NCBI GenBank assembly: GCA_016704485.1 | Contig: JADJAA010000001.1 | Coordinates: 1,554,824-1,618,823, forward strand | DNA: 64,000 nt | DNA from: Flavobacteriales bacterium | Lineage (GTDB): Bacteria > Bacteroidota > Bacteroidia > Flavobacteriales_F > PHOS-HE28 | Direction: 5' to 3' | Translations under genes and position numbers: made by a program | Shown here: piece after piece, positions 15,497-41,884 of the stretch | Layout: every line of letters begins with the position of its first letter | Position numbering within the stretch: position 1 is the first letter of the stretch | Notes under the pieces: generated by a model | The model's database searches: none | What the model was told of the DNA's origin: nothing | The model's input: the letters and a program-made list of their open reading frames with translations, nothing else

Positions 15497-15552
15497 TAGC
15501 TGGGCGCAATGGCGTGGTGGATGAAACGGGCTGCGGAAGAGCTATGCATGGA

Positions 15553-15696
15553 TCACAAATTCAACACTCCTTCAATAACCCGAAAACTCTCCAACCCACT
15601 TTCTAGATCTTCCACGACCTCGGTGGTGCATTCCGTGGTCTGCGCTTGAACCAGCGTAGAAAGAATTACAGTTAGGAAGAGTAGGAGAGTTCGCAT
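15553..15696 (-). CDS. Possible 47-aa secreted small protein
   Basis: Manual translation of the minus strand from ATG at 15696 gives MRTLLLFLTVILSTLVQAQTTECTTEVVEDLESGLESFRVIEGVLNL*. It has a clear signal-peptide-like N-terminus, lies in the gap between two defense genes, and is below the ORF-track length cutoff. Confidence 0.3.
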   Translation of the reverse strand: MRTLLLFLTVILSTLVQAQTTECTTEVVEDLESGLESFRVIEGVLNL

Positions 15697-15719
15697 GGGG
15701 TGGTGCTGGTTGTTGAAAT

Positions 15720-27004: not shown

Positions 27005-27017
27005 GGGGTGAAGATGG

Positions 27018-28226
27018 TCAATGTTTGGTGATGGTGGTAAATTCCCATTTAGACTGTCCGTTCAGTTCGACTTGTTTGACTTGGCCGGAAACGAGGTCGC
27101 CATCCACAAGGCTGTGTAGTTTTATCAGATCCTTGTTGATGTAGGCATCGCCAGCATGGGCGTAGGTGTTATCGTTGCGTTTCTTGACCACGACGCGGCC
27201 CAGTTCTTTGGTATCACCGTCGAGTAGGGGAACTCCGTCGCTGCCTACCGCTTCCTCGTGTAGCCAGGTTCGGTTCGCCTTGGGGTCTGGATACTTTGCT
27301 GCGAACTTCTTGAACCAGACCAACACGTCCATGAGCTGGAACACGATGGTGCTCAAGAGGTAAGGCGTTACACCATGCTCGTGTAGTGCTTCGAGATTGT
27401 CCAAGCTGTAATTGGAATCCTCAGCGGTCTCGTCCGCATGCGAGCTTTCGCTGGTTACCCGCAGAATATTGTCCAGTGCATCGGCAACGATCCGGGGCAT
27501 CATCGGGCGGTCACACTTCAAGGCCACCGTGGCCGAAGAACGGCTCGGATAAAGCACGCGCTCGCCCCGCAGGAACAGTGCTGACAAGCGTTGGTTGACC
27601 CTCGGCTTTACAAGGACATCGGGTAGTAACCCGTGCCGATGCGCGGCATAGAAGAAGTGCTCCACTACCTGACGCAAAGGATTCATGAATAAGCGATCAC
27701 TACCGGACTTGTCCCCGCGATCCACAAAGCGCAATGCGTCCATGAACATAGGGTCGGCAACGGCATCCAAATAAGGAACTTGGAGCACTGCGAACACATC
27801 GGCATACCTATCACGAAGCGCTTGCTCGTTGCTTCGATCAACAAGGCTCTGTAGTTCCGCGTATAGGTCCTTCTCGTTCCCTTTCAAGTACCGCCGCTCA
27901 TCACGACGGTTCTTTGTTGCACCTTCGTCAAAGCCGGTATTGATCACATACGGAATATGAATGTTCGCTCCTTTCCATTGGTCCAGATCCCTGCGGGCTT
28001 CATGCAGGTGGTCGATGTCCTCGGTGGGTGAATGTTCATCCACCTGCCCTCTGGCATCGAGGATCAAGGCTTTGAAACGCTTTTCTCGGATCGGTTCCTT
28101 AGCCTCGGCCCAGGTCTTGAACCAAGTCACTTCGAAACCGTGCGCGACCGCCTTAGCAATTTGGGCTTTGGCGTATGCTTCATCGTCATCTACTAAGGCG
28201 ATCGGAACCAGGTCAAACAGTGTCAT
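27018..28226 (-). CDS. Response-regulator receiver (REC) domain protein with an uncharacterised ~280-aa C-terminal (effector?) domain
   Basis: ORF 27018..28289(-). Start at 28226 gives MTLFDLVPIALVDDDEAYAKAQIAKAVAHGFEVTWFKTWAEAKEPIREKRFKALILDARGQ, with an acidic pocket DDD and a phospho-acceptor-like D in ILDARG. The remainder has no recognisable family. Its start overlaps the stop of the upstream kinase gene by 14 nt. Confidence 0.65.
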   Translation of the reverse strand: MTLFDLVPIALVDDDEAYAKAQIAKAVAHGFEVTWFKTWAEAKEPIREKRFKALILDARGQVDEHSPTEDIDHLHEARRDLDQWKGANIHIPYVINTGFDEGATKNRRDERRYLKGNEKDLYAELQSLVDRSNEQALRDRYADVFAVLQVPYLDAVADPMFMDALRFVDRGDKSGSDRLFMNPLRQVVEHFFYAAHRHGLLPDVLVKPRVNQRLSALFLRGERVLYPSRSSATVALKCDRPMMPRIVADALDNILRVTSESSHADETAEDSNYSLDNLEALHEHGVTPYLLSTIVFQLMDVLVWFKKFAAKYPDPKANRTWLHEEAVGSDGVPLLDGDTKELGRVVVKKRNDNTYAHAGDAYINKDLIKLHSLVDGDLVSGQVKQVELNGQSKWEFTTITKH

Positions 28227-30909
28227 GCGAAATGGGAAGGTCAATGGTGAAGTGGACAAACATTTGAGTGGATACAGCTTCCCGGTCAAATGGTATCCAA
28301 TGATTCTCGTCTATACGTTGATCGCGTTCAAAACTCGATCGGTACTTGTCATCGCTCACTGGCAGGTTACCCGACACGAACTTTCCGCCGTGGTTGGCAA
28401 TGATCCGATCGATCAGATAGCCGCCTATGCCATTGCCCTTTTTCATGTCCAGACGCTTGCCAAAGGTGATGAAGTGCTCATGGGTAAAACCTTCCGGAAA
28501 GGGTTTGCCGTTGTTCTCGATGGTGATAACCAATCGCGTTCGTTGAGGTTCAATACGCGTTGATACCCTCACCCGTACGACCAATTGTTCCTGATCCGAT
28601 CGAAGGCCGTGTTTGGCCATATTGATGAACAAGTTCTGGATGACAAGTGCGAACTGTTGTTGATCGACATGTGCGATCACTCCTTCAGTGGTTTCTAGTC
28701 CAGCTTCACATTCGAAAATGACCATAAGCGCTTTCACCTGGTCGGCAAGTCCGCGCAATTCCGTTCGGAACAGTCGACGAAGGTCGATGGGCACTGGTCT
28801 TAGACTCTCCTTATCTGATCGGATCACCGCATTGATCAATTGAAAGAGACCGCGCATGCGATCCAATCCACTATTCATTGTATCTAGGGCGGTGGTGATC
28901 GTAGACTTTTCAACTGGGCCCAAACTGTTGAGTACTGCATGGATCTCGGCCATGGGTTGCTCCAGAAGCGCCACCACCGGGCGGAAGCTGTGCTCCACTG
29001 CACCAAGGATCTGCCACTCATCAGTGGAGAGGCCATGCTGTTTTTCCTGCCTAGCGATCTCCTCCTTCTTCGCCAATAGAATGGATTCCTTCCGTTCGCG
29101 AACAATGCGCAGTTGATCCTTGAGTTCGGGTAAGCGAACCCGAATTCTCAGAACGTCTGCTTTGGCTATGAAAGCGATCGTACTTCCTTGGTGGTATGCG
29201 TCGAGCTGATCTTGGATCGTGGGCGTTCTTAGTTCTGTTGCGAGGTATTCGGTATTAGCACGAGCCGCATCCACACGGAACATGAATACATTGCTTCCCA
29301 CGGCGATCGGTCCATCTACCGGGTCGAATAAGGTCGGCTTCAACTTTCCGCCCACCCGTGCAAGTAGCAGTGCTGGCACATCCAATCTCTTCAGTCCCTT
29401 CTTGACAGAACCGGTTTCATGTTGCCCATCACGCGCCGTGCGCCTCATGTCGAGGACATCCGTTGAAAGCTCGGAGACCTGGAAGAGCGGCAGACCGGCG
29501 AGGTCGCCCATGGAGAGGATATCGTCCGAAAGCACGGTGCCGAGTTCAACCACGTCCACACCATCCGCTTCGGCCACGATATGGGCTTGTTGAAGCAGGC
29601 TGGCAAACCGACTCATGCTCCAAGACACATGCTCGTCGGAACGGATGTCAGAAACCTTCACGTCCAAAACACCTTGTAAGGTATAAGTGCTATCCAACGC
29701 CTGCAGCACGCTGCTAACATCGAGTGTTATTTCGGATCGCGTCTTGTATGTGACATGCAAACCCGCATCCACGAATCGGACAGGCGCATTCGTTGGCCGT
29801 GATCCATTCAAAACAATGATCGAGGTCTTTATCCCTGAGTAGGGTGTGAAGGATCCTGCTGGCAACGAGATCACTGCTTCGAGCAACCCTAGGTCAAGAA
29901 TCTGTTTGCGTAGATGCGCTCTGTTGATGCCGAACAACATACTCTCGGGCACAAGGATCACCGCCTTCCCCTCGGGTGCAAGCCGCTTGAGGATCTGGTT
30001 GATCGCTATCTCATAGGGTTCTATCGCGCGTAGCCTTCCTTCCTCTTTCACTCGACCACCGAAAGGTGGTGCACTAATGCAATGCGTATACTTCTTGTTG
30101 GAAGCACCGGGTGCTGATGGTTCGTTCAAGGCGGCGTTCAGGTCTGCCCCGAGAATACGTGCTTGCAGCGTATTGAAGAAGAATGCGAATTGGTTGAAGA
30201 ATACCGCGTCGAGCTTTACAGAATGTGGCGCACGCGCTGCGAGCACTGCTGGCAATACGCTCGCATCCGCAGCTGGGTCGAATACCTCTTCCACGTCTCC
30301 GAGCAGCCGCGCCATAAGCATTGCAACGGACCATGGCGTACAGAACTGGCCCATGTGACTATCGCGCAAGAGGAGGCTACGCATTTCTTCCACATACTCG
30401 ATCGGTTCCAAACCCGCTGATGCCATGAGAAAAAGCTCAGTTTGTACTGGGCTTGTTGCCAGTGCGCCGCCATTTTTAAGAAGATACGAATGCTGCTCCC
30501 CAAAGTCCTTAAACTCCTCTGCCAATTCATTCAAGGTGGACCATAATCCTTCTCCTCTTTGAGCGATCGTAGGCAACACTCCTGCTGGGCGCACGGCCAA
30601 GGCATAAATGAGTGCCAGCTCCAAGCCAACGGTCTGCGCGAAGGGCATGGATCGTAGCGCATTGCGCAATTCCCATGCGTGGGCCTGAAAAAAACGGACC
30701 CGGTTCAACATACGTTCTGGATCCAACTGTAAACTACCGTCATCGGATATACTAACACGCCCACCAGACAACTCCACCTCAGCAAGCAAGCTCGATGGCT
30801 CAACGTCCTTCTGGCTCAATAAGACCTTGACGATATTACAGACACCCTCCAAAGTATCCGAGCCGTTCTTCAGGCGAAGGGCACATATTATGGCGTCTAT
30901 CAGTTTCAT
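28213..30909 (-). CDS. Fusion protein: HsdM-like N6-adenine MTase domain (degenerate catalytic motifs) + HsdS-like target-recognition domain + HisKA/HATPase_c histidine kinase
   Basis: 898 aa. It has an HsdM N-terminal helical domain. Motif X is GQFCTPWSVAMLMARLL. Motif I is degenerate, VFDPAADASVLP (no GxGxF). Motif IV is CISAPPFGG, APPF instead of NPPF. The HsdM C-terminal region is AVILVPESMLFGINRAHLRKQILDLGLLEAVISLPAGSFTPYSGIKTSIIVL. The HsdS-like conserved helix is VRLPELKDQLRIVRERKESI. The H-box is AVEHSFRPVVALL. The GHKL ATPase region is LFINMAKHG (N-box), ...IENNGKPFPEGF...GNGIGGYLIDRIIANHGGK (G1/G2). Confidence 0.75.
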   Translation of the reverse strand: MKLIDAIICALRLKNGSDTLEGVCNIVKVLLSQKDVEPSSLLAEVELSGGRVSISDDGSLQLDPERMLNRVRFFQAHAWELRNALRSMPFAQTVGLELALIYALAVRPAGVLPTIAQRGEGLWSTLNELAEEFKDFGEQHSYLLKNGGALATSPVQTELFLMASAGLEPIEYVEEMRSLLLRDSHMGQFCTPWSVAMLMARLLGDVEEVFDPAADASVLPAVLAARAPHSVKLDAVFFNQFAFFFNTLQARILGADLNAALNEPSAPGASNKKYTHCISAPPFGGRVKEEGRLRAIEPYEIAINQILKRLAPEGKAVILVPESMLFGINRAHLRKQILDLGLLEAVISLPAGSFTPYSGIKTSIIVLNGSRPTNAPVRFVDAGLHVTYKTRSEITLDVSSVLQALDSTYTLQGVLDVKVSDIRSDEHVSWSMSRFASLLQQAHIVAEADGVDVVELGTVLSDDILSMGDLAGLPLFQVSELSTDVLDMRRTARDGQHETGSVKKGLKRLDVPALLLARVGGKLKPTLFDPVDGPIAVGSNVFMFRVDAARANTEYLATELRTPTIQDQLDAYHQGSTIAFIAKADVLRIRVRLPELKDQLRIVRERKESILLAKKEEIARQEKQHGLSTDEWQILGAVEHSFRPVVALLEQPMAEIHAVLNSLGPVEKSTITTALDTMNSGLDRMRGLFQLINAVIRSDKESLRPVPIDLRRLFRTELRGLADQVKALMVIFECEAGLETTEGVIAHVDQQQFALVIQNLFINMAKHGLRSDQEQLVVRVRVSTRIEPQRTRLVITIENNGKPFPEGFTHEHFITFGKRLDMKKGNGIGGYLIDRIIANHGGKFVSGNLPVSDDKYRSSFERDQRIDENHWIPFDREAVSTQMFVHFTIDLPISHDTV

Positions 30910-30971
30910 GCAACGGGGGTCAAAGTAAGCGGTGGAGGGTTATGGTGTAGATGTGTTTGCAGGTTATGATC

Positions 30972-32234
30972 TCAAGCGACTTTCTCCAGTCGGTTTGTCG
31001 GCAGAAGTTGGGCAGCCATACGATCCATGACCTCCCATTCCGGACGTGTGTACGAGTTGCTCTCCGTGACCACCGGGATCCTGAATTCGCCCATGGCATC
31101 CTCGCGCATAGCCCATTGATCCTTCTGGTCGTAGAGCTTTGTTCCGGGCAAAAGCATCAGCGGCCAAGCCTTAACGTCCCTGCAGCCTTTGGATAAGAGG
31201 TGGTCGATACTACGCTGGAAACTTTCCAAGGTCTGTCCGGGCAACCCGTAGATCAAACTCACTTCGAAAGGAATCTCGCGCTCCACAAGCTGTTCAATAG
31301 CAGCATCGACAAGATCCATCCGATTGGCGCGGTCAATTTTCTTGGACACTGCATGGTCCGTGGTCTGCAACCCGAACTCCAAGTGGAAGTTGGCTTGCGT
31401 ACAAAGGTCCAGGAATGCATTAACCTGTTGGCCTCGGATATTCTCAAAGCGCGATTGCAGGGTGAAGGTGGAGCGCGTACGGAGTTGAACGATCTCTTGC
31501 ATTATATCCAGGCACTCCTTCCCAGCGTTGAAGATGGGGTCGAGTATGTTCACGCGTTGCACACGATGTTCAGTGAGAAATGCTAACTCTTTAAAGACTT
31601 TATCCAGTGGGTGCTTATGCACGCGGTGAGTGGCGAGGTCGCGGTGTGCGCAAAATGAACACCGGTAGGGGCAGCCGCGTTTGGTCTCCAACCGTACCAT
31701 ACCGGCTCCCATTGGTACAGGCAATTCGCCAGTGAGATACGGTGAGGCCAGTTGTGTGAAGTCCACTGGTACGTTCACGAACACGGGTTCGTCGGCATCG
31801 AGATGGTCCGTCAATTCGGCAAAGGCTTGTTCGGCTTGTCCGGAGATGAAGACCTGGCAATCCGGATACCGACGCAGCAATTCTGCTCGGTTCCCGTAGG
31901 TGACTTGATACCCTCCGAGGACCACCTTGCCAAGGAACCCAAGACGACGAAGCAATGCGATGATGCCATTGGTGAGGTACTCGTTCCAGATGTAAGCCGA
32001 GAGCGCGATGGCGTTAAAGCGGCTCACATCAAGCGCCGCGAGTTGCACTTCGAATTGCTCGGGTGTGGCCGTGCCGCCGTGTTCGAGCATGTTGATCGAG
32101 AGGTGTTCCACGTGCATCTGTCCACGCAGCCGTTCATTACTCCGTTGGTGTGCCAAGAGAGATGCGATCGCCAAGGGCTTGGTGATCTCACCGTGCCGGA
32201 TCAGGTCGAAGGATATGATGAGCGTGTTCGTCAT
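30972..32234 (-). CDS. B12-binding domain radical SAM protein
   Basis: ORF 30972..32282(-). There is an N-terminal cobalamin-binding-like Rossmann region. The radical SAM cluster motif is RGCPYRCSFCAH (CxxxCxxC). It sits 62 bp upstream of the MTase-kinase gene, which is co-oriented. Confidence 0.75.
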   Translation of the reverse strand: MTNTLIISFDLIRHGEITKPLAIASLLAHQRSNERLRGQMHVEHLSINMLEHGGTATPEQFEVQLAALDVSRFNAIALSAYIWNEYLTNGIIALLRRLGFLGKVVLGGYQVTYGNRAELLRRYPDCQVFISGQAEQAFAELTDHLDADEPVFVNVPVDFTQLASPYLTGELPVPMGAGMVRLETKRGCPYRCSFCAHRDLATHRVHKHPLDKVFKELAFLTEHRVQRVNILDPIFNAGKECLDIMQEIVQLRTRSTFTLQSRFENIRGQQVNAFLDLCTQANFHLEFGLQTTDHAVSKKIDRANRMDLVDAAIEQLVEREIPFEVSLIYGLPGQTLESFQRSIDHLLSKGCRDVKAWPLMLLPGTKLYDQKDQWAMREDAMGEFRIPVVTESNSYTRPEWEVMDRMAAQLLPTNRLEKVA

Positions 32235-32343
32235 TGGTCCTCGCCACCAAGGGTCTATATGGTTGGATAATCGCTCAACCAACGAACTTCCCTATGGCAA
32301 CGGACCAAAAGTCCCGGTCACCTGTGCAGTCTATCTGCACAGT

Positions 32344-33354
32344 TCATTTCGCGTAGTTCTTCTTCATTTCCATCACCCGCAAAAGCAGCGCTTGGCGTAG
32401 TTCTTCCGGCGCAATAACCTGTAGCCCTTCTCCATAAGATAACAACAAGGCTTGTAGCTCGTAGTTCAGCTTCACTTCTAAACGAATAGTCGCGCCGCCG
32501 TCTTTTCTCTTCACTACTTTCTGCGAACCGTGTATAGGCTTTGACTCCAAATAAGGCCAAAGTCTATCCGTGACTTGGATCTTGACAACAACAGCTTCTT
32601 GATCCGCAGGTACACTTACACCAACAACATCCTCAAAATACTCCGTGAAATCCACCTCATCGTTCGGTATGTATTTCACCTTACTGGGTACAATATCCCG
32701 GATCCGGTCCAAGGCCATATTGACAATACGCCCCTCTTCCTCAAGACCAAAAACAAACCAACGGTTGTTATACTGTTTCAAGTAATACGGATGGAGCAAC
32801 ACAATGCTAGGCGCATTTTGCTTGAAGCCTTGGTAAGATATTTCCAAGGCTTGCTCATTGATGATCGAATGAAATAATGTGGTAATGTGCTCGGCACCTT
32901 TCAAATACGGGTTCTGCTCAAACTCGATGACCTGAGCAGCCCCTTGTTTCAGCCCGAAACCAGCTTCCAACCGAGCAACTAATTCATCTACCCATTCAAA
33001 CTGCGGCATGCCCTTAAATCGGCTCAGCGTTAAGAGCGCCTCCTTCAATTGTTCCGCTTCGCTCTCGTTCAGCGGTCGCTTGTTGATAGAGAATTCAAGG
33101 TCACTGTACCGGTAAAAAGTACGCTTTCCGTCTTTGTGTTTCTCCAGCGGGATAGCCCATCCTTGTTCGCTCTCCATGTACTTGATGTCCTCGAAAACTT
33201 GGCGGCGGCTGATGCTTGCACCTGCTCCGGTGAACTCCTCCAACGCCATGTTGCAAGCTTCCATCAGGTCTTCGATGAAATACTCGCGCCCACGGTTCGC
33301 AAAGCAACGGTCCATTGTCTGATAGCGAATAAGGGCATTCTTATTTACGGGCAT
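32344..33354 (-). CDS. WYL-domain transcriptional regulator (N-terminal wHTH + WYL + C-terminal WCX-like)
   Basis: 336 aa. The WYL signature is LLHPYYLKQYNNRWFVFGL, with an N-terminal HTH-like region. It has BrxR/CapW-like architecture. It is the first gene of the co-oriented block 33354->24303. Confidence 0.75.
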   Translation of the reverse strand: MPVNKNALIRYQTMDRCFANRGREYFIEDLMEACNMALEEFTGAGASISRRQVFEDIKYMESEQGWAIPLEKHKDGKRTFYRYSDLEFSINKRPLNESEAEQLKEALLTLSRFKGMPQFEWVDELVARLEAGFGLKQGAAQVIEFEQNPYLKGAEHITTLFHSIINEQALEISYQGFKQNAPSIVLLHPYYLKQYNNRWFVFGLEEEGRIVNMALDRIRDIVPSKVKYIPNDEVDFTEYFEDVVGVSVPADQEAVVVKIQVTDRLWPYLESKPIHGSQKVVKRKDGGATIRLEVKLNYELQALLLSYGEGLQVIAPEELRQALLLRVMEMKKNYAK

Positions 33355-33487
33355 CTCGGGTGGCTGAAATTAGGGCTGAACGGTGTTACCAGCCTCGTCT
33401 TTTATGGTCCTTCAGAAATACAAAAAACGGACTAATGCTTCTGCGCTCACTTTTCAAAAATCAATTGCATAGAGCAAATTAATCTTC

Positions 33488-33900
33488 CGCTGCCAGCTGG
33501 GTGGTAACCTGCACCAAGCTTGATGGTACCACACACCAAGCTTAGTGGTACCCTGTGCCAAGCTTAGTGGTACCTTGCACTAAGCTTGATGGTACCCTGC
33601 ACTAAGCTTAGTGGTACCCTGCACTAAGCTTAGTGGTACTCTGCACTAAGCTTAATGGTACCCTGCACCCAGTTGGGTGGTACCCTCCACCCAGCAGGGT
33701 GGTACCCTGCACCCAGTTGGGTGGTACCCTGCACTAAGCTTAGTGGTACCCTGCACTAAGCTTAGTGGTACTCTGCACTAAGCTTAATGGTACCCTGCAC
33801 CCAGTTGGGTGGTACCCTGCACCCAGTTGGGTGGTACCCTGCACCCAGTTGGGTGGTACCCCGCACTAAACTTAATGGTACCCGACACCAAGCTCAATAG
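33488..33900. repeat. Tandem array of ~19 copies of a 22-bp unit GGTACCCTGCACTAAGCTTAGT (variant units GGTACCCTGCACCCAGTTGGGT)
   Basis: Read directly from the sequence. Each unit contains the palindrome GGTACC plus either the 10-bp palindrome CTAAGCTTAG or the near-palindrome CCCAGTTGGG. A ~90-bp higher-order block (A-A-A-B) is itself duplicated. There are no unique spacers. It is non-coding because the unit length is not a multiple of 3. Confidence 0.9.
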
Positions 33901-33984
33901 TGCATTCCATTGATCTTGAGGGAGTTCACCTGAACCAGCATTGCGCTTGTGCCTCGGGAACTTGAGGAAGTAAAAGGTGAAATG

Positions 33985-34202
33985 GTCCGCTATCTATACC
34001 ATACTACTATAGGGCACATTGAACCTTAGTCTGGACTTCCGCCTTCGGAACTGCATTCGCTGCCAGATGATCATTGGGGTGCAATTATCCCAAACCTATA
34101 CCATATTACTATAGGGGGCATAAGCCTCCATCTCCGGCTCGTGAACTTTGGAGGTAAAGATGGTGTGATTTGACCTACTACCTATACCATATTACTATAT
34201 GG
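33985..34202. repeat. Three dispersed copies (~100 bp spacing) of a 20-nt near-palindromic motif CCTATACCATAYTACTATAGGG
   Basis: Copies are at ~33985 (ctataccatactactataggg), ~34089 (cctataccatattactataggg) and ~34178 (cctataccatattactatatgg). They lie between the two tandem arrays. Confidence 0.7.
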
Positions 34203-34287
34203 TGCTTTGCACCGTGCGCCTCGTGGTGCACACTTGTGGTTCAGAACTGCTTCATGTAGGCCTGGTGCAAGAGGCTGTATTTGTTCC

Positions 34288-34758
34288 ATTGGTACATGGC
34301 CTTGTCCCGTAAGTACATGTACTTGTGCCTTTGGTACATGTACTTGTCCCGTGAGTACATGTACTTGTCCCGTAAGTGCATGTACTTGTCCCGTGAGTAC
34401 ATGTACTTGTCCCGTGAGTACATGTACTTGTCCCGTAAGTACATGTACTTGTCCCGTAAGTACATGTACTTGTGCCGTTGGTACATGTACTTGTCCCGTA
34501 AGTACATGTACTTGTGCCGTTGGTACATGTACTTGTGCCGTTGGTACATGTACTTGTGCCGTGAGTACATGTACTTGTGCCGTGAGTACATGTACTTGTC
34601 CCGTAAGTACATGTACTTGTGCCGTTGGTACATGTACTTGTCCCGTAAGTACATGTACTTGTCCCGTAAGTACATGTACTTGTCCCGTAAGTACATGTAC
34701 TTGTCCCGTAAGTACATGTACTTGTGCCGTGAGTATGTGTACCTGTACCATGTGTAAC
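34288..34758. repeat. Tandem array of ~22 copies of a 21-bp unit TACATGTACTTGTCCCGTAAG (variants GTGCCGTTGG / CCGTGAG)
   Basis: Read directly from the sequence. Each unit contains the perfect 10-bp palindrome GTACATGTAC. Because 21 bp equals 7 codons, all frames are open, which explains four overlapping artefactual ORFs in the track (34182..34788). Confidence 0.9.
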
Positions 34759-35042
34759 GATACTTCAAGTTACAGTACACTTACTTGATACAGAGGTGCT
34801 TATGCCATTGCGTGGGGTATGCCTGCTTGTAACACGGGGACTGATAACCCACTCAGCGTCAGGCGTAAAGAGTGATCCGAACGTTGCCCGTGCTGCATAA
34901 CCCATCCTCGAGCGGCCGCGTGCGGGCTACAGTAAATGAAAAGAACCCCGGCCAGTTGTGCTAGGATTCTTCCGTTCGGGGATGGTGTATGAGTGGCAGG
35001 GTCGTCTGCTATGCGGCAGACTGACCCTGAGCGGGTTTAAAA

Positions 35043-35327
35043 ATGCGCCGCTGCACTACGCAATGGGTAGCGGATGCGCAGTTCGCTTACCTGGTGGACC
35101 CCGCATCGCCCGAAGCGGAACTTCCGCACAAAGCAACCCTCTTGGTGCACTGCCCGGAACGCGGCGAGATCCGGCTGAATATATTGTCCAACGGTTCCAT
35201 CGCCGAACTACAGTTCACGGACTGCTATGAACCGATGTCCAGAACCACCAGCATAGCAGAAGAATCCGATCCGATGTCTCCTTTTACCGTGGTACATCGG
35301 CATTGGGATCACGGCAGTGAGGTGTAG
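35043..35327 (+). CDS. Possible small protein (94 aa), followed by an intrinsic terminator
   Basis: The ORF has mixed amino-acid composition and ends 22 nt upstream of a strong hairpin + T8 terminator. No homology recognised. A 13-bp-stem hairpin (34996..35028) lies just upstream. Confidence 0.3.
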   Translation: MRRCTTQWVADAQFAYLVDPASPEAELPHKATLLVHCPERGEIRLNILSNGSIAELQFTDCYEPMSRTTSIAEESDPMSPFTVVHRHWDHGSEV

Positions 35328-35348
35328 GTGTGCCCCTCATTTGAATGG

Positions 35349-35389
35349 AACGACCCCGCTGTTTTTGCTGGGTCGTTTTTTTTGCTGGG
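35349..35389 (+). terminator. Rho-independent terminator (stem ACGACCC/GGGTCGT, 13-nt loop, T8 tail)
   Basis: The sequence reads aACGACCCcgctgtttttgctGGGTCGTtttttttg. Confidence 0.6.
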
Positions 35390-35457: not shown

Positions 35458-36426
35458 TCAAGCCTTTATGAACTCGTTCACAAAAGCTTGTACAAATTGC
35501 TTGGCTAAAGCAGAGTAAGGCTTGGTCGGCTCTGTCAGTTGCATCAGCAATTCCACCTCTTGCTCGATCATCGCCTCAATTGTTCCTGTGGTCTTTTTTA
35601 CAAGTTTGTTCAATGTACGTGTTGGTACTTTATCCTTGAATGATCTGATATCCTTACCGATCTCGTTCGATAGGTCGATCAATTTCAAGATCATCTCAAA
35701 ACGCATTTTTAATCGCAGAATGTATTCTCTGCGCATATCGACCAACCCCTTTCTATTCAAGCCGTAGATCTCAATGGAACGGATCGCTTTTTGCCAATGG
35801 ATCTCCCTTTTTATCACGTTCTCTGATGAGGGCAAAGCAATGGCCTTCATTACTCCTGAGTCATCGTATTCCAAGTATTTGCTAGGTTCGTCCGTACAAG
35901 GGTTCAACAACAAACATTGTTCGCCTGAAATATCGAACAGCGGCGCACTCGCACGCATTGTTTCATCAAACAATGGAAAAGAGTTTGCCTTTCCTTGTTT
36001 TAGCTTTTTCCATTGATAGGACCCATCTATGGGGTTCTTTCGATACACATATTGATAGCGCGCTCTATTGCAGTCTATGCATGAAGGGAGTAGATTATCC
36101 CATTCCATTGCGAGCTTAGCATATACACCTACTTTAGTTTCGGTCTTGTTCGTCAATTCTACGAGCACTTCGGATTTGGGTCTGAAATGCTCAATATCCA
36201 GCGGTTGTGTGCGCGTGTAAGGTGATTCGCAATATGCACATTTACCATGGAACATAAGCTCCAACAACTCAGGCACTTTTTCGTGCTTGTAAAGCTTGAA
36301 ATCGGGCTTTAGGTCCTTGTGGAAATCGCTTCGAAGCCATGCTTCCACCTCTTCCTTTTCTTTGTTGAAGGCATCCGAGGTTATGGTAAGTGCCTGCGGG
36401 GCATTTACGCGTTTTCGTTTGATCAT
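35458..36426 (-). CDS. HNH endonuclease-domain protein, PtuB-like (TIGR02646-type)
   Basis: 322 aa. The HNH motif is GKCAYCESPY...DIEHFRPKS...NLLPSCIDCN. The central region is paralogous to the N-terminal domain of the upstream 795-aa protein. Confidence 0.7.
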   Translation of the reverse strand: MIKRKRVNAPQALTITSDAFNKEKEEVEAWLRSDFHKDLKPDFKLYKHEKVPELLELMFHGKCAYCESPYTRTQPLDIEHFRPKSEVLVELTNKTETKVGVYAKLAMEWDNLLPSCIDCNRARYQYVYRKNPIDGSYQWKKLKQGKANSFPLFDETMRASAPLFDISGEQCLLLNPCTDEPSKYLEYDDSGVMKAIALPSSENVIKREIHWQKAIRSIEIYGLNRKGLVDMRREYILRLKMRFEMILKLIDLSNEIGKDIRSFKDKVPTRTLNKLVKKTTGTIEAMIEQEVELLMQLTEPTKPYSALAKQFVQAFVNEFIKA

Positions 36427-36434
36427 TGAAGAGC

Positions 36435-38822
36435 TCAGTTGTTCAGGCGCCAGGAAGCATCCGTTAAAGCCTCTATTATCTTCTTAGTGGGTTTGGGAAA
36501 TCGTACGTTGGTCGGTGACTTCATCAAGTGCTCATCGATCAGCCTCAACAAGTACATATCACGCCGACTACTACCGAGAATGCTCTTTCTGTTGAGTCGT
36601 TCATGTAGATCCTTCAGTTGTGCCTTACCCGAATCATCTAACGCCGATGCCTTCGCTATGAGGTTGTAATAGCGGTCAAAGAATTCAGCTGTGCGCGGGT
36701 CCAGGGTTGTACTTAATCCGAATAATTCTGAGGTAAGGAGCTGGTCGGAACGTAAGCCAGCCGGCGAATCCATGTCGTCGTGTACTGTAGCCATGGAAGG
36801 GTCGTCCACATTTCTCTTGACCAATGCTACTTCACCAGCACCCAGCCCATGCAGGCATAGTGGCTCATGGGTGCTCGCGATGAATTGGATAAGCGGAAAT
36901 GTCTGTTCCAATCTTCTTAAGATGCTCATGCGCCAACTCGGGTGCAGATGTGCACCGATCTCATCAATTAGTACCACGCCTCTAATTTGATGCGTATCCG
37001 TTGGATTGCCTGCCATTATATCACAGGCTAGACCAACCATGGTCTTGTAACCCGCACTAAAATGCTTTAAGCGGGTGAATGACCCGTTCACGAAAAGCCC
37101 GAATTGTGTTGGCTTGTTGTTTTCAAATTGAAAGTCGAGACGTGTAGAATTATCTGTAAGATCCAGCAGGTCCTTCAAGGCCACACAAACATCGAAGAAC
37201 TGCTGTTGATTCTTTACCACTATGGTACGTAACCACTCTTCGGCATCTACCATGGGATAGAACGGGTCAAAGAGGTTCTGGATGTTCTTATTCACTCCCC
37301 TTTTCTCTAACAGATCAGAACTCTTGCCTTTTTGCGGCAGCAATCGAACAGGCCCGTATGCACGAAGAAATATATTCGGGACCTCACCTTGCTCCCATTT
37401 TAATCCGCTATTCGTGATGTTCACTACGATAGGATCTGTTCGCTGATGAAAGTAGACTTCAATTCTACCTGACGTAGCTCCACGCCTCAAGCTAGTGCTG
37501 AAATGCTCCTTCATCTTACTCAAGGCTTTCTTGCCGCTGAGTATCAATGCAAGTGCTTCGAGCAGCGAACTTTTTCCTGACCCGTTCTCACCCAGCAGCA
37601 TTTTCCAACCGCTGTGTCGAAAGGTTTCCTGTTGTGGAGATTCGGAGCCGTTTTCGTCGATCGTCTTCCGGCGTTCCTCTTGATTGCCTCCCGCTGTTTC
37701 CGTGTTCAAGTCTAAGTTCAGTTCACGTTCTGTGTCTACTAGGTCTTTCGGGCGTTCTTGGGGGATCAAGAATACAGCCTTCTCGAAGATCCTGTAATTC
37801 TCAACTATTAATTTGCTAATGGTCAGCGCTTGATGCGCGACTTTCTCCTTGGACGGCGCATTCTCTGTGGCGGTTTTCGGAGGAGTTCTTTGCGCCTCGG
37901 AACTCGTCTTCTTTGGAGACTCCTTATTAGCGCGTGTTGATCCCGGTTTCGTACGCGCTCCGGTCTCAGCTTCTAATAAGGACCCAGGCTTATTGAGCCC
38001 TTTGCTTATTGTTTCGACGTGCAGGCCGTCGCCTTGAATGAGGATTTTTAGTCCGAAGTCCTCCTTAAGAACATGGTTACTCAGATTCCGCATTGGACTT
38101 TGCGGGTCTATCAGTCCTTTCAAGAAGTGATCTTCTTCTACGGTTCGAGGTAGTTTCTCACCCTTTTTTTTAAGAACCAGAGACTTTGTCAAGTCGCGAA
38201 CTCGGTGAACCATATCACTCCTTCTATTGATGGCGGATTTCCGGTTCAGGTCCAGAGTTTCAATGGTCACCTCGGCTCGTCGCTTCTGCATGTGCCCTAA
38301 AGTGGAACGAGGCTTTATCATTCCATTAGATGAATAGTCGAAGTACTCCTCCGGATCGTCTTCATAAGGATTCAGCAAATACGGTTCTTCTTTCTCGAGC
38401 GCACTCCCCCGAGGCTGGTCATCAGCATGCTTGATAGGAACACGTTTTCCGGCGATGGGAAACTGTGCTCCCTTTGCAAAACTGCACTCATTGCATATGG
38501 GTAGCATGTTCTGCCAATCAAACAATAGCCACCAATAGTGGTCGCCAACCTGCTCATTTGGTTCCACTTTTACCGGTCGGTACAGGTCGATGTGTACCGT
38601 CTTTTCATTCAAGGGTGCTTCGCAATACGCACATGCATTATTGGAGGTTTCCAGAAGATCTCGGTTTACATCACGAGAATACTGTGGAGCCTTGTGTCTT
38701 ATCTGGCTTCGCTTCTCTAAAGGTTGCGCATAAAACTTCCGAAGTTCATTGAACGTCTTCTCTCCTTCCGTACTGTACTGTAGGTCTGGTGGAGATACTT
38801 TACTTCGGTTCAGTTTTCTCAT
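36435..38822 (-). CDS. Fusion of an N-terminal HNH (PtuB-like) domain with an AAA15/ABC-type ATPase (PtuA-like)
   Basis: 795 aa. The N-terminus has NACAYCEAPL...HIDLYRPV...NMLPICNECS (HNH). The ATPase has Walker A LLGENGSGKSSLLEALALIL, Walker B VVLIDEIGAHLHPS, and ASTHEP (a D-loop/H-motif region). Its stop (36435) is 9 nt from the downstream HNH gene start. Confidence 0.7.
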   Translation of the reverse strand: MRKLNRSKVSPPDLQYSTEGEKTFNELRKFYAQPLEKRSQIRHKAPQYSRDVNRDLLETSNNACAYCEAPLNEKTVHIDLYRPVKVEPNEQVGDHYWWLLFDWQNMLPICNECSFAKGAQFPIAGKRVPIKHADDQPRGSALEKEEPYLLNPYEDDPEEYFDYSSNGMIKPRSTLGHMQKRRAEVTIETLDLNRKSAINRRSDMVHRVRDLTKSLVLKKKGEKLPRTVEEDHFLKGLIDPQSPMRNLSNHVLKEDFGLKILIQGDGLHVETISKGLNKPGSLLEAETGARTKPGSTRANKESPKKTSSEAQRTPPKTATENAPSKEKVAHQALTISKLIVENYRIFEKAVFLIPQERPKDLVDTERELNLDLNTETAGGNQEERRKTIDENGSESPQQETFRHSGWKMLLGENGSGKSSLLEALALILSGKKALSKMKEHFSTSLRRGATSGRIEVYFHQRTDPIVVNITNSGLKWEQGEVPNIFLRAYGPVRLLPQKGKSSDLLEKRGVNKNIQNLFDPFYPMVDAEEWLRTIVVKNQQQFFDVCVALKDLLDLTDNSTRLDFQFENNKPTQFGLFVNGSFTRLKHFSAGYKTMVGLACDIMAGNPTDTHQIRGVVLIDEIGAHLHPSWRMSILRRLEQTFPLIQFIASTHEPLCLHGLGAGEVALVKRNVDDPSMATVHDDMDSPAGLRSDQLLTSELFGLSTTLDPRTAEFFDRYYNLIAKASALDDSGKAQLKDLHERLNRKSILGSSRRDMYLLRLIDEHLMKSPTNVRFPKPTKKIIEALTDASWRLNN

Positions 38823-38823
38823 C

Positions 38824-40638
38824 TTAACTATGTGCTATTCTGTGGAACGTGTTCGCCAAATAGTGCTTCGGGTTAGTCCTGGCGATCAGGTCGAATTGTG
38901 CTTCGCTCAGGCCGGCCAGCATATTGGCATAGAGCTCCTTTTCTGATAGGTGGTTCCTCACGACAAAAAAGTCTGTACCGAACAGGACCCGTTCACCGAG
39001 TTTCTTCACTGAATGGTCGATCGTCTTTTTCAGTAACGGTTGTATCCACGGATCGTGCAATATGTAACTGATATCTGCATAAACGTTCTCATAGCGCAAC
39101 ATCATACTGCAAATGATCGTGTACCAGTCAGCTTCCATCCAGTGAGCGTAGACACGTGTCCATTGGATGCGCTTGTGTTCGTTGTCATAATACGATCGAT
39201 GAAATAATCCGCTTTCAGCATGCAGGTTCAGATCTTGGTTGTACTGGTCATTATCGGCTTCTAAATGTCGTTTCCATTCATCAACACCACCAAAATGTGC
39301 CAAGCAGATCTTCAATTGAGAAAGTGATCGGAATTTTTCATCGGGACCTTTTTCGAACAACGTTTGAATTCGGGGTTGGCAGCTCACGAGGTGCTCCCTC
39401 AAGAGGTCATCATCCAGCAGGCAGAGGTAGTTCAATGGATGTGTGTAGTTCTTTTGAAAGTCGATTCCGCGAAGTTCCAACAGGTCAATGGGTGCGATCA
39501 CCGTATCGTCATGTGCGTCCTCTATTCCGGTTGAACGCTTGAAGACAGGATGCTTTGCCATTTCATCAGTGATCTTGTCTCGGGAATATATTGTGCCATG
39601 CACGCAATGGGTCATGATCGGTAAACCTTCCTGAGCTGCATACGCCCACACGGGCAATAGGTCTTCATCGAAAGGATAATAACCTAAAGCCGGGTAGATC
39701 TTGAATCCGCAGCAACCATTGCTTAGATACTTCTGGACTTTACATTCAAGCAAGACTACTTTACCGTATTCTACTTTCCACTTGAAGAAGTCATCCTCTT
39801 CACGAATTCGGCGTGGATCAATGAAGATGAAAGGCAGTATTTGATGTCCATGATCTTCACCTTTGGTAAGTTTTACAAGCCCTTCCATTTGTTTGTGGAA
39901 ATCACCTAATCGGTGGACCTTCCCCGCACCCATGTATTTCATATCCATTGGTAGAACAATGAATTTGGTTTCGGCTGGGTACTGGGCCCGGAGTTTTTGA
40001 AAGAGTAGACTTAGTCGCCTTTGGTCATCACCGGTTTTCGCACTTTTCGTCTCGTAACCATAAGAGCTGAAGCGTGCGATAAGTACGTATCGCTCCAAAA
40101 GGTCCATGTACTCCGTAGCAGGAAAGCTCTTGATCATTGGAACAAACTTTTGTAGAAGGAACCAGATCTGTCTTCGAACGGCTGGGATGAATGCAATAAT
40201 TGCTGCTACGAATATGGTCTTGATCGCCCAGTGTAATTCATGAAAGTATAATTTATACTTTACAAGTAACGCCAAGAACGCCGCGATATATTTCGACCCG
40301 CCATAGAAGGTGCTTTCAACCAAAACTTCATAAAGGAATAATAACACATAGATCGTAACGATCAAATTAAACGCACCTCGTACAAACTTCAAGAAGCTGT
40401 TTCGTTGGATCCTGTTCTGCGCCTTTACCTTGTTTATGCGTATGGTTTCTTGTGCCGGTTCATACCGCTCGGCATACTTCCGTCGGTTGCACTTCACGTA
40501 AAGTTTCATGAAGTAATCCATTCGCGCCCACTTGTACAACGGCCACGGAAGAATACCCTTTGCATGCTCTGGAGGCACGTGATAGTTGTTGAACAAGTGC
40601 ACGTGGCAGTTCACTATGGGGTCCTTCACTTTACTCAT
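38824..40638 (-). CDS. Membrane-anchored amidohydrolase-superfamily (metal-dependent TIM-barrel hydrolase, Amidohydro_2-like) protein
   Basis: 604 aa. The N-terminal metal-binding motif is VNCHVHLF. A ~80-aa insertion carries 2-3 TM helices (LIVTIYVLLFLY, IFVAAIIAFIPAV). Then come IMTHCVHG, CLAHFGG and VLFGTDFF. It ends 2 nt before the start of the HNH-ATPase gene. Confidence 0.6.
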   Translation of the reverse strand: MSKVKDPIVNCHVHLFNNYHVPPEHAKGILPWPLYKWARMDYFMKLYVKCNRRKYAERYEPAQETIRINKVKAQNRIQRNSFLKFVRGAFNLIVTIYVLLFLYEVLVESTFYGGSKYIAAFLALLVKYKLYFHELHWAIKTIFVAAIIAFIPAVRRQIWFLLQKFVPMIKSFPATEYMDLLERYVLIARFSSYGYETKSAKTGDDQRRLSLLFQKLRAQYPAETKFIVLPMDMKYMGAGKVHRLGDFHKQMEGLVKLTKGEDHGHQILPFIFIDPRRIREEDDFFKWKVEYGKVVLLECKVQKYLSNGCCGFKIYPALGYYPFDEDLLPVWAYAAQEGLPIMTHCVHGTIYSRDKITDEMAKHPVFKRSTGIEDAHDDTVIAPIDLLELRGIDFQKNYTHPLNYLCLLDDDLLREHLVSCQPRIQTLFEKGPDEKFRSLSQLKICLAHFGGVDEWKRHLEADNDQYNQDLNLHAESGLFHRSYYDNEHKRIQWTRVYAHWMEADWYTIICSMMLRYENVYADISYILHDPWIQPLLKKTIDHSVKKLGERVLFGTDFFVVRNHLSEKELYANMLAGLSEAQFDLIARTNPKHYLANTFHRIAHS

Positions 40639-40766
40639 TTTTGATCCAGTGCGTACTGATCACTTATAGAGATCTTATGATGCCAGTACTATCGGTCAGA
40701 AATGCATTGACTTGCCACCACATTATTGTGATGGCTCATGGTCGAATGGAACGTAAATCTGTGGAG

Positions 40767-41864: not shown

Positions 41865-41884
41865 ATACTTTTCAGTTCAATTAT

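What the first reader, a model, noticed from the sequence alone, without database searches (positions are those of the whole stretch)
33488..34758. Two different long tandem arrays built on 10-bp palindromes, upstream of the WYL-led operon
Array 1 has ~19 copies of a 22-bp unit containing GGTACC plus CTAAGCTTAG or CCCAGTTGGG. Array 2 has ~22 copies of a 21-bp unit containing GTACATGTAC. They lie ~390 bp apart. Array 1 has a duplicated higher-order A-A-A-B block, which suggests recent expansion. Neither is a CRISPR array, since there are no spacers. Each unit carries a dyad site of the type bound by dimeric HTH proteins or recognised by restriction enzymes. Arrays of ~20 sites could act as regulator-titrating iterons, restriction-site decoys, or a replication or partition-like sequestration element. 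This is an unusual structure for a bacterial chromosome, and it sits directly upstream of the defense operon's regulator gene.
Basis: seen in the sequence. Interest (0 to 1): 0.7.

Follow-up and report, generated by a model that had tools for sequence, protein, structure and literature searches.

The report
Two palindrome-unit minisatellites in a defence island
Two real, back-to-back arrays of about 20 short palindromic DNA units lie in a 2.1-kb non-coding gap between two phage-defence gene clusters of a wastewater Flavobacteriales bacterium, but they are confined to this one species and nothing found here ties them to regulation of the neighbouring genes.

Summary
Array 1 is 33490-33907 (22 bp x ~18-19) and array 2 is 34290-34751 (21 bp x ~22). 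Each unit is a 14-bp palindrome plus a 7-8-bp linker. The same copy numbers appear in six independent assemblies, so this is not an artefact.

The functional ideas found no support:
- The WYL-rSAM-methylase-type I R-M operon is conserved in many Bacteroidota, but none of about 85 orthologous loci (46-70% identity) has such arrays.
- The likely WYL operator (TTGC-N5-GCAA) does not resemble the array palindromes.
- The restriction-type sites in the units are not avoided elsewhere in the window.
- No rep, par or toxin gene is adjacent.
- The gap also holds a truncated gene remnant.

Best reading (about 0.5): lineage-specific minisatellites amplified by slippage or unequal exchange of hairpin-prone units, in a decaying junction between two acquired defence modules (Septu and the WYL-led system). 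The closest precedent is the 23-nt BrickBuilt minisatellite of Porphyromonas gingivalis.

A protein-binding or hairpin-RNA role is not excluded. Interest is moderate to low.

The parts
33490..33907 (.). Array 1: 19 units of 22 bp. Each is a 14-bp palindrome (CACTAAGCTTAGTG type A, or CACCCAGTTGGGTG type B) plus the linker GTACCCTG. There is an A-A-A-B-B-B higher-order repeat of 132 bp. End units are degenerate.
   Evidence: TRF 33501-33894, period 22 x 17.9 and period 132 x 3.0. Units read in register. Motif counts against shuffles.
33940..34235 (+). Three direct copies of a ~90-100-bp unit (33940-34041, 34042-34127, 34128-34235). The invariant core CTATACCATAYTACTATA(G) lies at 33994-34012, 34096-34114 and 34182-34200.
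   Evidence: the repeat finder family D1. Three matches in the window against 0.00 expected. Alignment A1 has 68% mean column identity with an invariant 19-mer. No stable conserved hairpin.
34290..34751 (.). Array 2: 22 units of 21 bp. Each is the 14-bp palindrome AAGTACATGTACTT (variants GAG.., TGG..) plus the linker GTSCCGT. The core GTACATGTAC is unchanged in 19 of the 20 interior units; the twentieth has GTGCATGTAC.
   Evidence: TRF 34292-34746, period 21 x 21.7, 91% matches. Units in register. 22 matches against 0.09 expected.
33458..33476 (-). Imperfect inverted repeat AATTTGC-TCTAT-GCAATTG in the 135 bp between array 1 and the WYL start codon. It is the best candidate for the WYL repressor's own operator.
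   Evidence: Sequence. Similar ATTGC/CATTG inverted repeats lie upstream of orthologues L041, L019 and L025. This is inference, not shown.
32344..33354 (-). wHTH-WYL-WCX regulator gene, first gene of the operon WYL, radical SAM (PDC-M51A), methylase-HATPase, 423-aa protein, HsdM, HsdS.
   Evidence: Pfam WYL and WCX. PADLOC. Operon order is conserved in relatives.
35043..35327 (+). 94-aa ORF, the only ORF in the gap with homologues. It matches the C-terminal two thirds of a rare ~145-150-aa family. The N-terminal part is absent in all frames, so it is probably a truncated remnant.
   Evidence: 11 hits among 1.84 billion representatives; P0122-P0126 align from their residue ~42-100 onward. Three-frame translation of 34740-35330. 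No Pfam, NCBIfam or PADLOC family.
35349..35385 (+). Hairpin AACGACCCCGC/GCTGGGTCGTT followed by a T-run. It looks like a terminator for the + strand, between the 94-aa ORF and the convergent end of ptuB.
   Evidence: Inverted repeat I3. Sequence. Not listed by the consensus terminator scan.
35458..38822 (-). Septu module: PtuB (35458-36426) and PtuA (36435-38822). Its 3' end bounds the 2.1-kb gap on the right.
   Evidence: PADLOC: PtuB 1.2e-68, PtuA 1.6e-157.

Best explanation
The two arrays are genuine, lineage-restricted minisatellites. Two unrelated short dyad-symmetric units were each amplified to about 20 copies. The likely process is slipped-strand mispairing and unequal exchange, which hairpin-forming units favour.

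The amplification happened in a 2.1-kb non-coding, partly decayed junction between two horizontally acquired defence modules. Septu (ptuAB) lies on the right and the WYL-rSAM-methylase-type I R-M system on the left. The arrays are not a conserved cis-regulatory part of the WYL-led operon.

Shown here:
- The arrays are real, stable in most samples, and shorter in phase in one divergent strain.
- They are restricted to this species in the data available.
- They are absent from orthologous operons.
- A truncated gene lies beside them.

Inferred, not shown:
- The amplification mechanism.
- That any effect is a by-product. Transcripts crossing the region would fold into runs of 14-18-bp inter-unit hairpins. 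The DNA offers about 40 phased dyads. Either could damp read-through from Septu into the WYL operon or bind proteins incidentally.
- The symmetric A-to-B change in array 1 (TA..TA to CC..GG) can arise without selection through quasi-palindrome template switching.
For: - Real and reproducible: identical arrays in six assemblies, and contig breaks inside the arrays in short-read assemblies.
- Typical minisatellite anatomy: degenerate end units, homogenised interior, a 132-bp higher-order duplication.
- Copy-number variation: strain L005 has about four times more flank SNPs and carries in-phase shorter alleles of about 10 and 14.7 copies.
- Not tied to the operon: 80 GTDB loci plus L016, L018 and L220-L224 share the WYL operon but have no such arrays. 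The only arrays near them are small and unrelated.
- Not found elsewhere: the motifs are absent from the rest of the window, from 1.43 Mb of other fetched loci, from viral contigs, and from phage and plasmid collections.
- The two unit types are no more alike than shuffled sequences. They share an architecture, not ancestry.
- The gap contains a truncated gene remnant. G+C drops at this junction, from 0.52-0.59 on the left to 0.44-0.48 on the right.
Against: - Two large arrays of the same architecture 397 bp apart, flanking a triplicated 19-mer, look organised. Elsewhere such arrays are rare: about one small array per 150 kb in about 900 kb of related loci.
- The array 2 core GTACATGTAC is unchanged in 19 of the 20 interior units, and all three recurrent variable positions fall in or next to the linker. 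The only other variable site, in one interior unit, lies inside the core. This could reflect constraint, or merely youth.
- The periods of 21 and 22 bp equal two helical turns, as in cooperative protein-binding arrays.
- Copy numbers are identical in six samples, which is more stable than a freely slipping repeat might be.
- No transcription, methylation or binding data were available.
Confidence: 0.5

Rival explanations
1. Protein-binding arrays. Each 14-bp dyad is a site for a dimeric DNA-binding protein. The 21-22-bp phasing puts about 20 dimers on one face of the helix. The result would be a cooperative nucleoprotein block that titrates a regulator, insulates the two operons, or acts like a parC or iteron cluster. 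The three 19-mers between the arrays would be sites for a second protein.
For: - Perfect 14-bp palindromes at two-turn spacing.
- BrxR/CapW-type WYL repressors bind a palindromic site of about 20 bp as dimers, so one unit could hold one dimer (PMC11662680).
- Two arrays flank a central region, loosely like the split iteron sets of plasmid R1 parC (from memory).
- The array 2 core is unchanged in 19 of the 20 interior units.
Against: - Three different palindromes would need three specificities.
- No single copy of any of them lies near a promoter elsewhere in the window.
- The candidate WYL operator is unrelated to them.
- Orthologous operons work without arrays.
- No par, rep or extra HTH gene is adjacent.
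Confidence: 0.2
2. Functional repeat RNA. The central region drives divergent transcription, leftward through array 1 and rightward through array 2. The transcripts fold into strings of hairpins. These would serve as a decoy, a sensor, or an antitoxin-like RNA, analogous to the repeat antitoxins of type III toxin-antitoxin systems, or as an RNase-processed pool of small RNAs.
For: - Five- to six-unit segments (126-132 nt) fold well below shuffled sequence: z = -2.9 to -3.5 for array 1 and z = -6.4 to -7.3 for array 2, with 13-18-bp inter-unit stems.
- In array 2 all 11 non-Watson-Crick transition variants are G.U on the + strand, against 16 mismatches on the - strand.
- A + strand hairpin with a T-run follows the 94-aa ORF downstream of array 2.
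- BrickBuilt repeats are transcribed from bidirectional promoters (PMC4596501).
Against: - Strong folding is automatic for tandem palindromes.
- The G.U asymmetry rests on about three independent mutations, and array 1 shows none.
- No Rfam family matched.
- No convincing Bacteroidota-type or sigma-70-type promoter was found in the centre.
- No ToxN, AbiQ, CptN or other nuclease gene lies downstream.
- Units are 21-22 nt x 20, whereas type III antitoxins are about 34-49 nt x 2-6 (from memory; repeat nature per PMC8860590 abstract).
Confidence: 0.12
3. A BrickBuilt-like mobile element. The region is one copy of a non-autonomous element, made of leader, internal minisatellite and tail, that is dispersed in this genome.
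For: Same phylum, similar unit length (21-23 nt), similar maximum copy number, intergenic position, species restriction, and no BLAST hits outside the species (PMC4596501).
Against: - No terminal inverted repeats between the flanks of the region; scores are within the shuffle range.
- No second copy of any motif in the 64-kb window.
- There are two different unit types side by side rather than one.
Confidence: 0.1
4. Array 2 encodes a heptad-repeat peptide, for example (QVHVLTG)n on the - strand or (TCTCPVS)n on the + strand. It might be a substrate of the neighbouring radical SAM enzyme.
For: - The 21-bp period keeps at least four of the six frames open across the array (ORFs of 158-193 aa).
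- MAG annotations call a 189-aa gene there.
- A radical SAM gene lies 2 kb away, and rSAM-matured repeat peptides exist in defence (PMC13128918 abstract).
Against: - Array 1 has the same architecture but a 22-bp period and stop codons, so it cannot be coding.
- No homologue was found for the 189-aa product.
- Pfam hits are low-complexity only.
- Orthologous rSAM operons have no such ORF.
Confidence: 0.03
5. Assembly artefact: collapsed or chimeric repeats.
For: One scaffold has an N gap here (L001), and one assembly is shorter (L005).
Against: Six independent assemblies from different samples and pipelines are identical across both arrays.
Confidence: 0.01

Closest known systems
BrickBuilt minisatellite/MITE of Porphyromonas gingivalis (Klein et al. 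2015, PMC4596501)
   Same: - Same phylum, Bacteroidota.
- Spacerless direct repeats of about 23 nt, up to 22.8 copies.
- Always intergenic and species-restricted.
- Copy number differs between strains.
[quoted passage not shown]
- No Rfam match.
   Different: - BrickBuilt has leader and tail segments with terminal inverted repeats and 19 dispersed copies per genome. Here no TIRs were found and no second copy lies within 64 kb.
- Here there are two different units side by side.
- Here each unit holds a perfect 14-bp palindrome.
- Here a triplicated 19-mer sits between the arrays.
Type III toxin-antitoxin repeat antitoxins (ToxI, CptI, TenpI, antiQ)
   Same: Tandem, spacerless repeats in a phage-defence context, lying upstream of protein genes. 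They work as RNA.
   Different: - Units there are about 34-49 nt in 2-6 copies, followed directly by an endoribonuclease toxin gene.
- Here units are 21-22 nt x ~20, palindromic, and there is no toxin gene.
Iteron or centromere-like repeat clusters (plasmid iterons; R1 parC, pSK41 parC)
   Same: Direct repeats phased at one or two helical turns. Two clusters flank a central region.
   Different: - Those have 4-12 copies next to rep or par genes on plasmids.
- Iterons are usually not palindromic.
- Here the locus is chromosomal, has about 20 copies per array, and no rep or par gene.
BrxR/CapW operators of WYL repressors
   Same: Palindromic DNA upstream of a wHTH-WYL-WCX gene that heads a defence operon (PMC11662680).
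   Different: - Known operators are a single palindrome of about 20 bp at the promoter.
- The arrays start about 135 bp upstream of the start codon.
- They are absent from orthologues.
- They differ from the candidate operator.
REP/BIME elements
   Same: Short extragenic palindromes clustered between co-directional operons. Proposed roles are in transcript stability, termination and gyrase binding.
   Different: REPs are dispersed in hundreds of copies, carry GTAG or CGTC tags, and alternate in orientation within BIMEs (PMC3733652 abstract). Here there are strictly direct tandem units at one locus.

Membership tests
CRISPR array | Repeats separated by unique spacers of similar length | tested here: not met
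   Units are contiguous. The 7-8-bp linkers are nearly invariant.
CRISPR array | Adjacent cas genes | tested here: not met
   Neighbours are WYL, rSAM, methylases, PtuA and PtuB. No Cas effector hits, only WYL accessory models.
Type III toxin-antitoxin antitoxin array | Endoribonuclease toxin gene (ToxN, AbiQ, CptN or TenpN) directly downstream of the repeats | tested here: not met
   Downstream are the WYL gene on the - strand or a 94-aa remnant on the + strand. Neither has Pfam or PADLOC toxin hits.
Type III toxin-antitoxin antitoxin array | Few (2-6) repeats of about 34-49 nt forming pseudoknotted units | tested here: not met
   Units are 21-22 nt in about 18-22 copies and are simple palindromes. 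The family's size range is from memory.
BrickBuilt-type minisatellite MITE | Spacerless direct repeats of about 23 nt, variable copy number, intergenic | tested here: met
   21- and 22-bp units, about 22 and 18 copies, with a shorter allele in L005, in a 2.1-kb intergenic gap.
BrickBuilt-type minisatellite MITE | Leader and tail segments ending in terminal inverted repeats | tested here: not met
   The best inverted matches between flanks score 14-26, within the range of the shuffles run (maxima 25 and 33).
BrickBuilt-type minisatellite MITE | Multiple dispersed copies in the genome | not testable with these tools
   Only 64 kb of the genome is held, and there is no second copy in it.
REP/BIME | Many dispersed copies; palindromic units in alternating orientation | tested here: not met
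   All copies lie in two direct tandem arrays. None is elsewhere in the 64 kb.
Plasmid iteron origin or par centromere | Adjacent rep or par genes and a plasmid or mobile replicon context | tested here: not met
   No such genes are present. The locus lies on contigs of up to 2.15 Mb beside core genes bamA, uppS and NAD kinase.
Plasmid iteron origin or par centromere | Direct repeats phased with the DNA helix | tested here: met
   The periods are 21 and 22 bp, about two turns.
WYL (BrxR/CapW) operator | Palindromic site at the promoter of the WYL gene, co-inherited with the regulator | tested here: not met
   Arrays are absent upstream of about 85 orthologues. A different inverted repeat is the better operator candidate.
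WYL (BrxR/CapW) operator | Direct binding by the WYL protein | not testable with these tools
   Needs EMSA or footprinting.

The most novel reading that the evidence does not exclude
The whole 1.3-kb structure is one cis-acting device of the defence island. It comprises array 1, three 19-mer sites and array 2. One version is a phased landing pad that soaks up a host or phage dimeric DNA-binding protein. Another is a divergently transcribed pair of hairpin-repeat RNAs. Either would couple invasion signals to expression of the WYL-controlled rSAM/methylase/type I R-M system or to Septu. That would be a new kind of repeat-based regulatory or decoy element in bacterial immunity.
Probability: 0.12. 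Interest if true: 0.7.

Novelty: new member of a known kind. Interest (0 to 1): 0.3.

Why it matters
If the ordinary reading holds, the practical points are these:
- The locus is a good strain-typing marker (VNTR).
- It is a known breakpoint for short-read assemblies of an abundant wastewater Flavobacteriales species.
- It shows that defence-island junctions accumulate decaying DNA and minisatellites.

If the arrays prove to bind a protein or make functional hairpin RNA, they would be a new cis element linking two defence systems. The concrete coordinates, unit sequences and the list of orthologous loci without arrays given here make that directly testable.

Tried and rejected
1. T7-type promoter idea. 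The 19-mer ends in ACTATAGGG. No single-subunit RNA polymerase is in the window, and the motif is absent from viral contigs apart from one chance hit.
2. Conserved hairpin or HUH-nick-site idea for the 19-mer (loop CCATATTAC). Folding of the three copies is inconsistent and mostly no better than shuffles.
3. Common origin of the two unit types. The best cyclic alignment is no better than shuffles.
4. A homologous array in the 76% relative L014/L015. I first thought its contig end carried array-1-like units. The similarity is within the shuffle range and TRF finds nothing, so the claim is withdrawn.
6. Searching the spurious 189-aa array-2 ORF against 5.8 billion proteins to find sister arrays. 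No hit. The exact-sequence cluster look-up also found nothing.
7. Tracing the arrays through Septu. PtuB has no relative above 45% identity.
8. Context of the 94-aa ORF family. Only short contigs were available and none had arrays.
9. BLASTN of the whole gap against phages and plasmids. No match.
10. Rfam. Only sub-threshold microRNA noise.
11. Promoter scans, both sigma-70 and the Bacteroidota -7 motif TAnnTTTG. Nothing consistent across the three central repeats.
12. Restriction-site avoidance. None.
Full report
**What is there.** The sequence between 33355 and 35457 is a 2.1-kb gap without a convincing full-length gene. On the left it is bounded by the start of a wHTH-WYL-WCX regulator gene (32344-33354, minus strand). 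On the right it is bounded by the stop of ptuB (35458, minus strand).

- TRF finds two strong arrays and nothing comparable elsewhere in the 64 kb. They are 33501-33894 (period 22, 17.9 copies, plus a 132-bp higher-order period) and 34292-34746 (period 21, 21.7 copies).
- Read in register, each unit is a 14-bp palindrome followed by a short linker.
- Array 1 units are CACTAAGCTTAGTG (type A) or CACCCAGTTGGGTG (type B), plus GTACCCTG.
- Array 2 units are AAGTACATGTACTT (variants GAG.. and TGG..), plus GTSCCGT.
- Array 1 runs A-rich, then B-B-B, A-A-A, B-B-B, A. The last twelve of these units form the 132-bp duplication.
- Both arrays have degenerate end units.
- The motifs occur 11-22 times against 0.00-0.09 expected, and apart from two weak two-mismatch hits (49497, 51274) only here.

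It is three direct copies of a ~90-100-bp unit with 68% mean identity. Their 19-nt core, CTATACCATAYTACTATA(G), is invariant.

**Is it real?** The WYL protein is encoded with 100% identity on at least 21 public contigs from wastewater samples.

- Six assemblies carry both arrays with identical copy numbers and almost identical sequence: the window plus L002, L003, L004, L006 and L007.
- Three short-read contigs stop inside an array (L008, L009, L219), and one scaffold has an N gap there (L001).
- One assembly, L005, has in-phase shorter arrays of about 10 and 14.7 copies. It also has about four times more SNPs in the flanks. This is probably a true strain allele, although assembler collapse cannot be ruled out.
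- An assembly artefact is therefore excluded.

**Context.** The window is a chromosomal defence island of a Flavobacteriales bacterium. Source names appear, and T9SS sorting domains.

- 6850-10223: PsyrT/PsyrA-like pair (PsyrT by PADLOC; the adjacent DprA/SLOG-type ORF read as PsyrA by inference).
- 10664-15496: a 1610-aa DpdF/UvrD-like helicase.
- 15720-17534: GmrSD.
- 17621-21079: HsdR.
- 24303-33354: the operon WYL, B12-type radical SAM (PDC-M51A), methylase-HATPase (898 aa), a 423-aa protein, HsdM, HsdS.
- 35458-38822: Septu ptuAB.
- 54-64 kb: core genes (bamA, skp, uppS, NAD kinase).

G+C falls from 0.52-0.59 left of the gap to 0.44-0.48 across Septu. The gap is therefore a junction between two separately acquired modules.

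**Is it part of the WYL system?** The WYL-rSAM-methylase-HsdMS operon is widely conserved.

- I collected 80 GTDB loci at 46-68% WYL identity, plus L016, L018 and L220-L224 at 64-70%.
- TRF finds no comparable array upstream of any of them. There are only four or five small unrelated arrays of 5-9 copies.
- In several loci an unrelated gene ends 60-270 bp upstream of the WYL gene.
- Array palindromes and the 19-mer are absent from 1.43 Mb of these and other fetched loci.
- They are also absent from viral contigs and from phage and plasmid collections.

The only other carrier is L219. This is a mosaic allele whose 5' part and upstream DNA are 95-100% identical to the window, whose sensor half is 57-80% identical, and whose contig ends in array 1.

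An apparent array at the end of the 76% relative L014 did not survive a shuffle test, and I withdraw it.

The 135 bp between array 1 and the start codon hold an imperfect inverted repeat, AATTTGC-N5-GCAATTG. It resembles perfect ATTGC/CATTG inverted repeats upstream of three orthologues. It is a better operator candidate than the array dyads, which it does not resemble. Known BrxR/CapW repressors bind one palindrome of about 20 bp (PMC11662680).

**Other functional ideas.**

- *Restriction decoy.* GTAC, CATG, GGTACC, AAGCTT and ACATGT have observed/expected ratios of 0.73-0.96 outside the arrays. There is no sign of selection against these sites in this genome.
- *Replication or partition.* No rep or par genes are present, and the setting is chromosomal.
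- *RNA.* Five- to six-unit segments (126-132 nt) fold far below shuffles (z down to -7.3). The reason is that neighbouring palindromes pair into 13-18-bp stems with the linker as loop. That is automatic for tandem palindromes.
  - Array 2 variants are all G.U-compatible on the + strand. This rests on about three independent transitions, and array 1 shows no bias.
  - Rfam is silent. No consistent promoter was found. No toxin-like gene follows either array.
- *Coding.* The 21-bp period leaves at least four frames open in array 2. Array 1, with the same architecture, cannot be coding, and the 189-aa product has no homologue.
- *The 19-mer.* A phage-RNA-polymerase promoter and a nick-site hairpin were both considered and dropped.

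**The rest of the gap.** The only ORF with homologues is 35043-35327 (+). It matches the C-terminal two thirds of a rare ~145-150-aa family of unknown function. The family's conserved N-terminal FDPxP...QW..WP segment is missing in all three frames upstream. It is most likely a truncated remnant. It is followed by a + strand hairpin and T-run at 35349-35385. No terminal inverted repeats bracket the region. The two array units are not related to each other.

**Best explanation.** The arrays are lineage-specific minisatellites. Hairpin-prone units were amplified by slippage and unequal exchange in decaying junction DNA between two defence modules. The supporting features are:
- degenerate edges and a homogenised interior;
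- a recent 6-unit block duplication;
- an in-phase shorter allele;
- restriction to one species;
- absence from orthologous operons.

The symmetric A-to-B change in array 1 can be produced without selection by quasi-palindrome template switching (established mutational mechanism, from memory).

The closest published thing is BrickBuilt in Porphyromonas gingivalis. [quoted passage not shown] BrickBuilt is a dispersed MITE with leader and tail inverted repeats. I found no such ends here, and I could not scan the whole genome, so membership is open.

I give the minisatellite reading about 0.5.

**What keeps it from being dismissed.** Three observations are not explained by the neutral reading:
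- Two unrelated arrays share the same 14+7/8 architecture and two-turn phasing. They lie 397 bp apart and flank three invariant 19-mers.
- The array 2 core is unchanged in 19 of the 20 interior units.
- The copy number is the same in six samples.

Rival readings are a protein-binding array (0.2), a hairpin-RNA element (0.12) and a dispersed BrickBuilt-like element (0.1). None has positive evidence beyond the anatomy.

**Verdict.** Novelty: a new member of a known kind, bacterial intergenic minisatellites of dyad-symmetric units. Interest: 0.3.

Noticed in passing
L219 1-1295 (JGI 3300012956) versus window 32200-33560: A mosaic WYL allele. Upstream DNA and the first ~440 nt of the gene (the wHTH part) are 85-100% identical to the window per 60-nt bin. 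Locus nt 661-1200 (the WYL-WCX sensor part) are only 57-80% identical. The last ~95 nt are again 100% identical. The sensor half of the regulator seems to have been swapped by recombination while the DNA-binding half and array 1 were kept.
   Followed up: partly
window 24303-33354 (-), and L016, L018, L014, L220, L224: The gene order WYL regulator, B12-type radical SAM (PADLOC PDC-M51A, 6.6e-117), ~900-aa N6-methylase with a specificity-like region and a C-terminal HATPase, a ~400-aa unknown protein, HsdM, HsdS is conserved across many Bacteroidota MAGs. Some variants insert a DUF2130 gene. It looks like a composite modification-based defence system built onto a type I R-M.
   Followed up: partly
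L091 5907-6011 (Prevotellaceae MAG): A 14-bp unit, CAACAAAATTATGC, is repeated 7.5 times. It duplicates the translation start region of the WYL regulator homologue, so each unit carries an ATG and 14 is not a multiple of 3. This looks like a possible phase-variation switch on a defence regulator.
   Followed up: no
L044 1-203 (Chitinophaga MAG): A non-palindromic 22-bp unit, CGAGGTATGTTGTAAGTGAGTT, is repeated 9 or more times at the contig start, about 2.3 kb upstream of a WYL homologue. It is unrelated in sequence to the arrays studied here.
   Followed up: no
window 35043-35327 (+): A 94-aa ORF that is a truncated copy of a rare ~145-150-aa protein family of unknown function. There are 11 hits among 1.84 billion representatives. 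Conserved motifs are FDPxP..QW..WP.LA and PFTVVHR. In L225 the full-length gene follows an fn3-domain gene.
   Followed up: partly
window 34997-35029: A 33-nt near-perfect palindrome, CAGGGTCGTCTGC-TATGCG-GCAGACTGACCCTG, lies just upstream of the 94-aa ORF. Its function is unknown.
   Followed up: no
window 36435-38822 (-): The 795-aa PtuA carries an N-terminal ~240-residue region that matches PtuB (HNH-type) models. A separate PtuB gene follows it, so this Septu has two PtuB-like modules. PtuB has no relative above 45% identity in 5.8 billion proteins.
   Followed up: no
window 6850-10223 (+) and 10664-17534 (-): More defence genes lie in the same island: a PsyrT-like RecQ/PRTase protein (PADLOC 4.9e-287) with a DprA/SLOG partner, a 1610-aa fusion of a DpdF-like DEAD helicase and a UvrD/GajB-like helicase, and a GmrSD-type (HEC-05-like) nuclease.
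   Followed up: no
whole window outside the arrays: GATC is over-represented (observed/expected 1.38) and CTAG is strongly under-represented (0.51) among 4-bp palindromes.
   Followed up: no
window 38824-42676 (-): Upstream of Septu, on the same strand, lie a 604-aa protein with a C-terminal amidohydrolase domain, a 365-aa protein with no family hit, and a papain-like cysteine protease. G+C here is low (0.44-0.45). They may belong to the Septu module or to another system.
   Followed up: no
L130 3809-6620 and other loci: Metagenomes contain many long 21-22-bp tandem arrays. One example is 128 copies of AAACCTGCACATGAACCTGTTC on a 10.9-kb contig. Such minisatellites are not rare in environmental DNA.
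   Followed up: no
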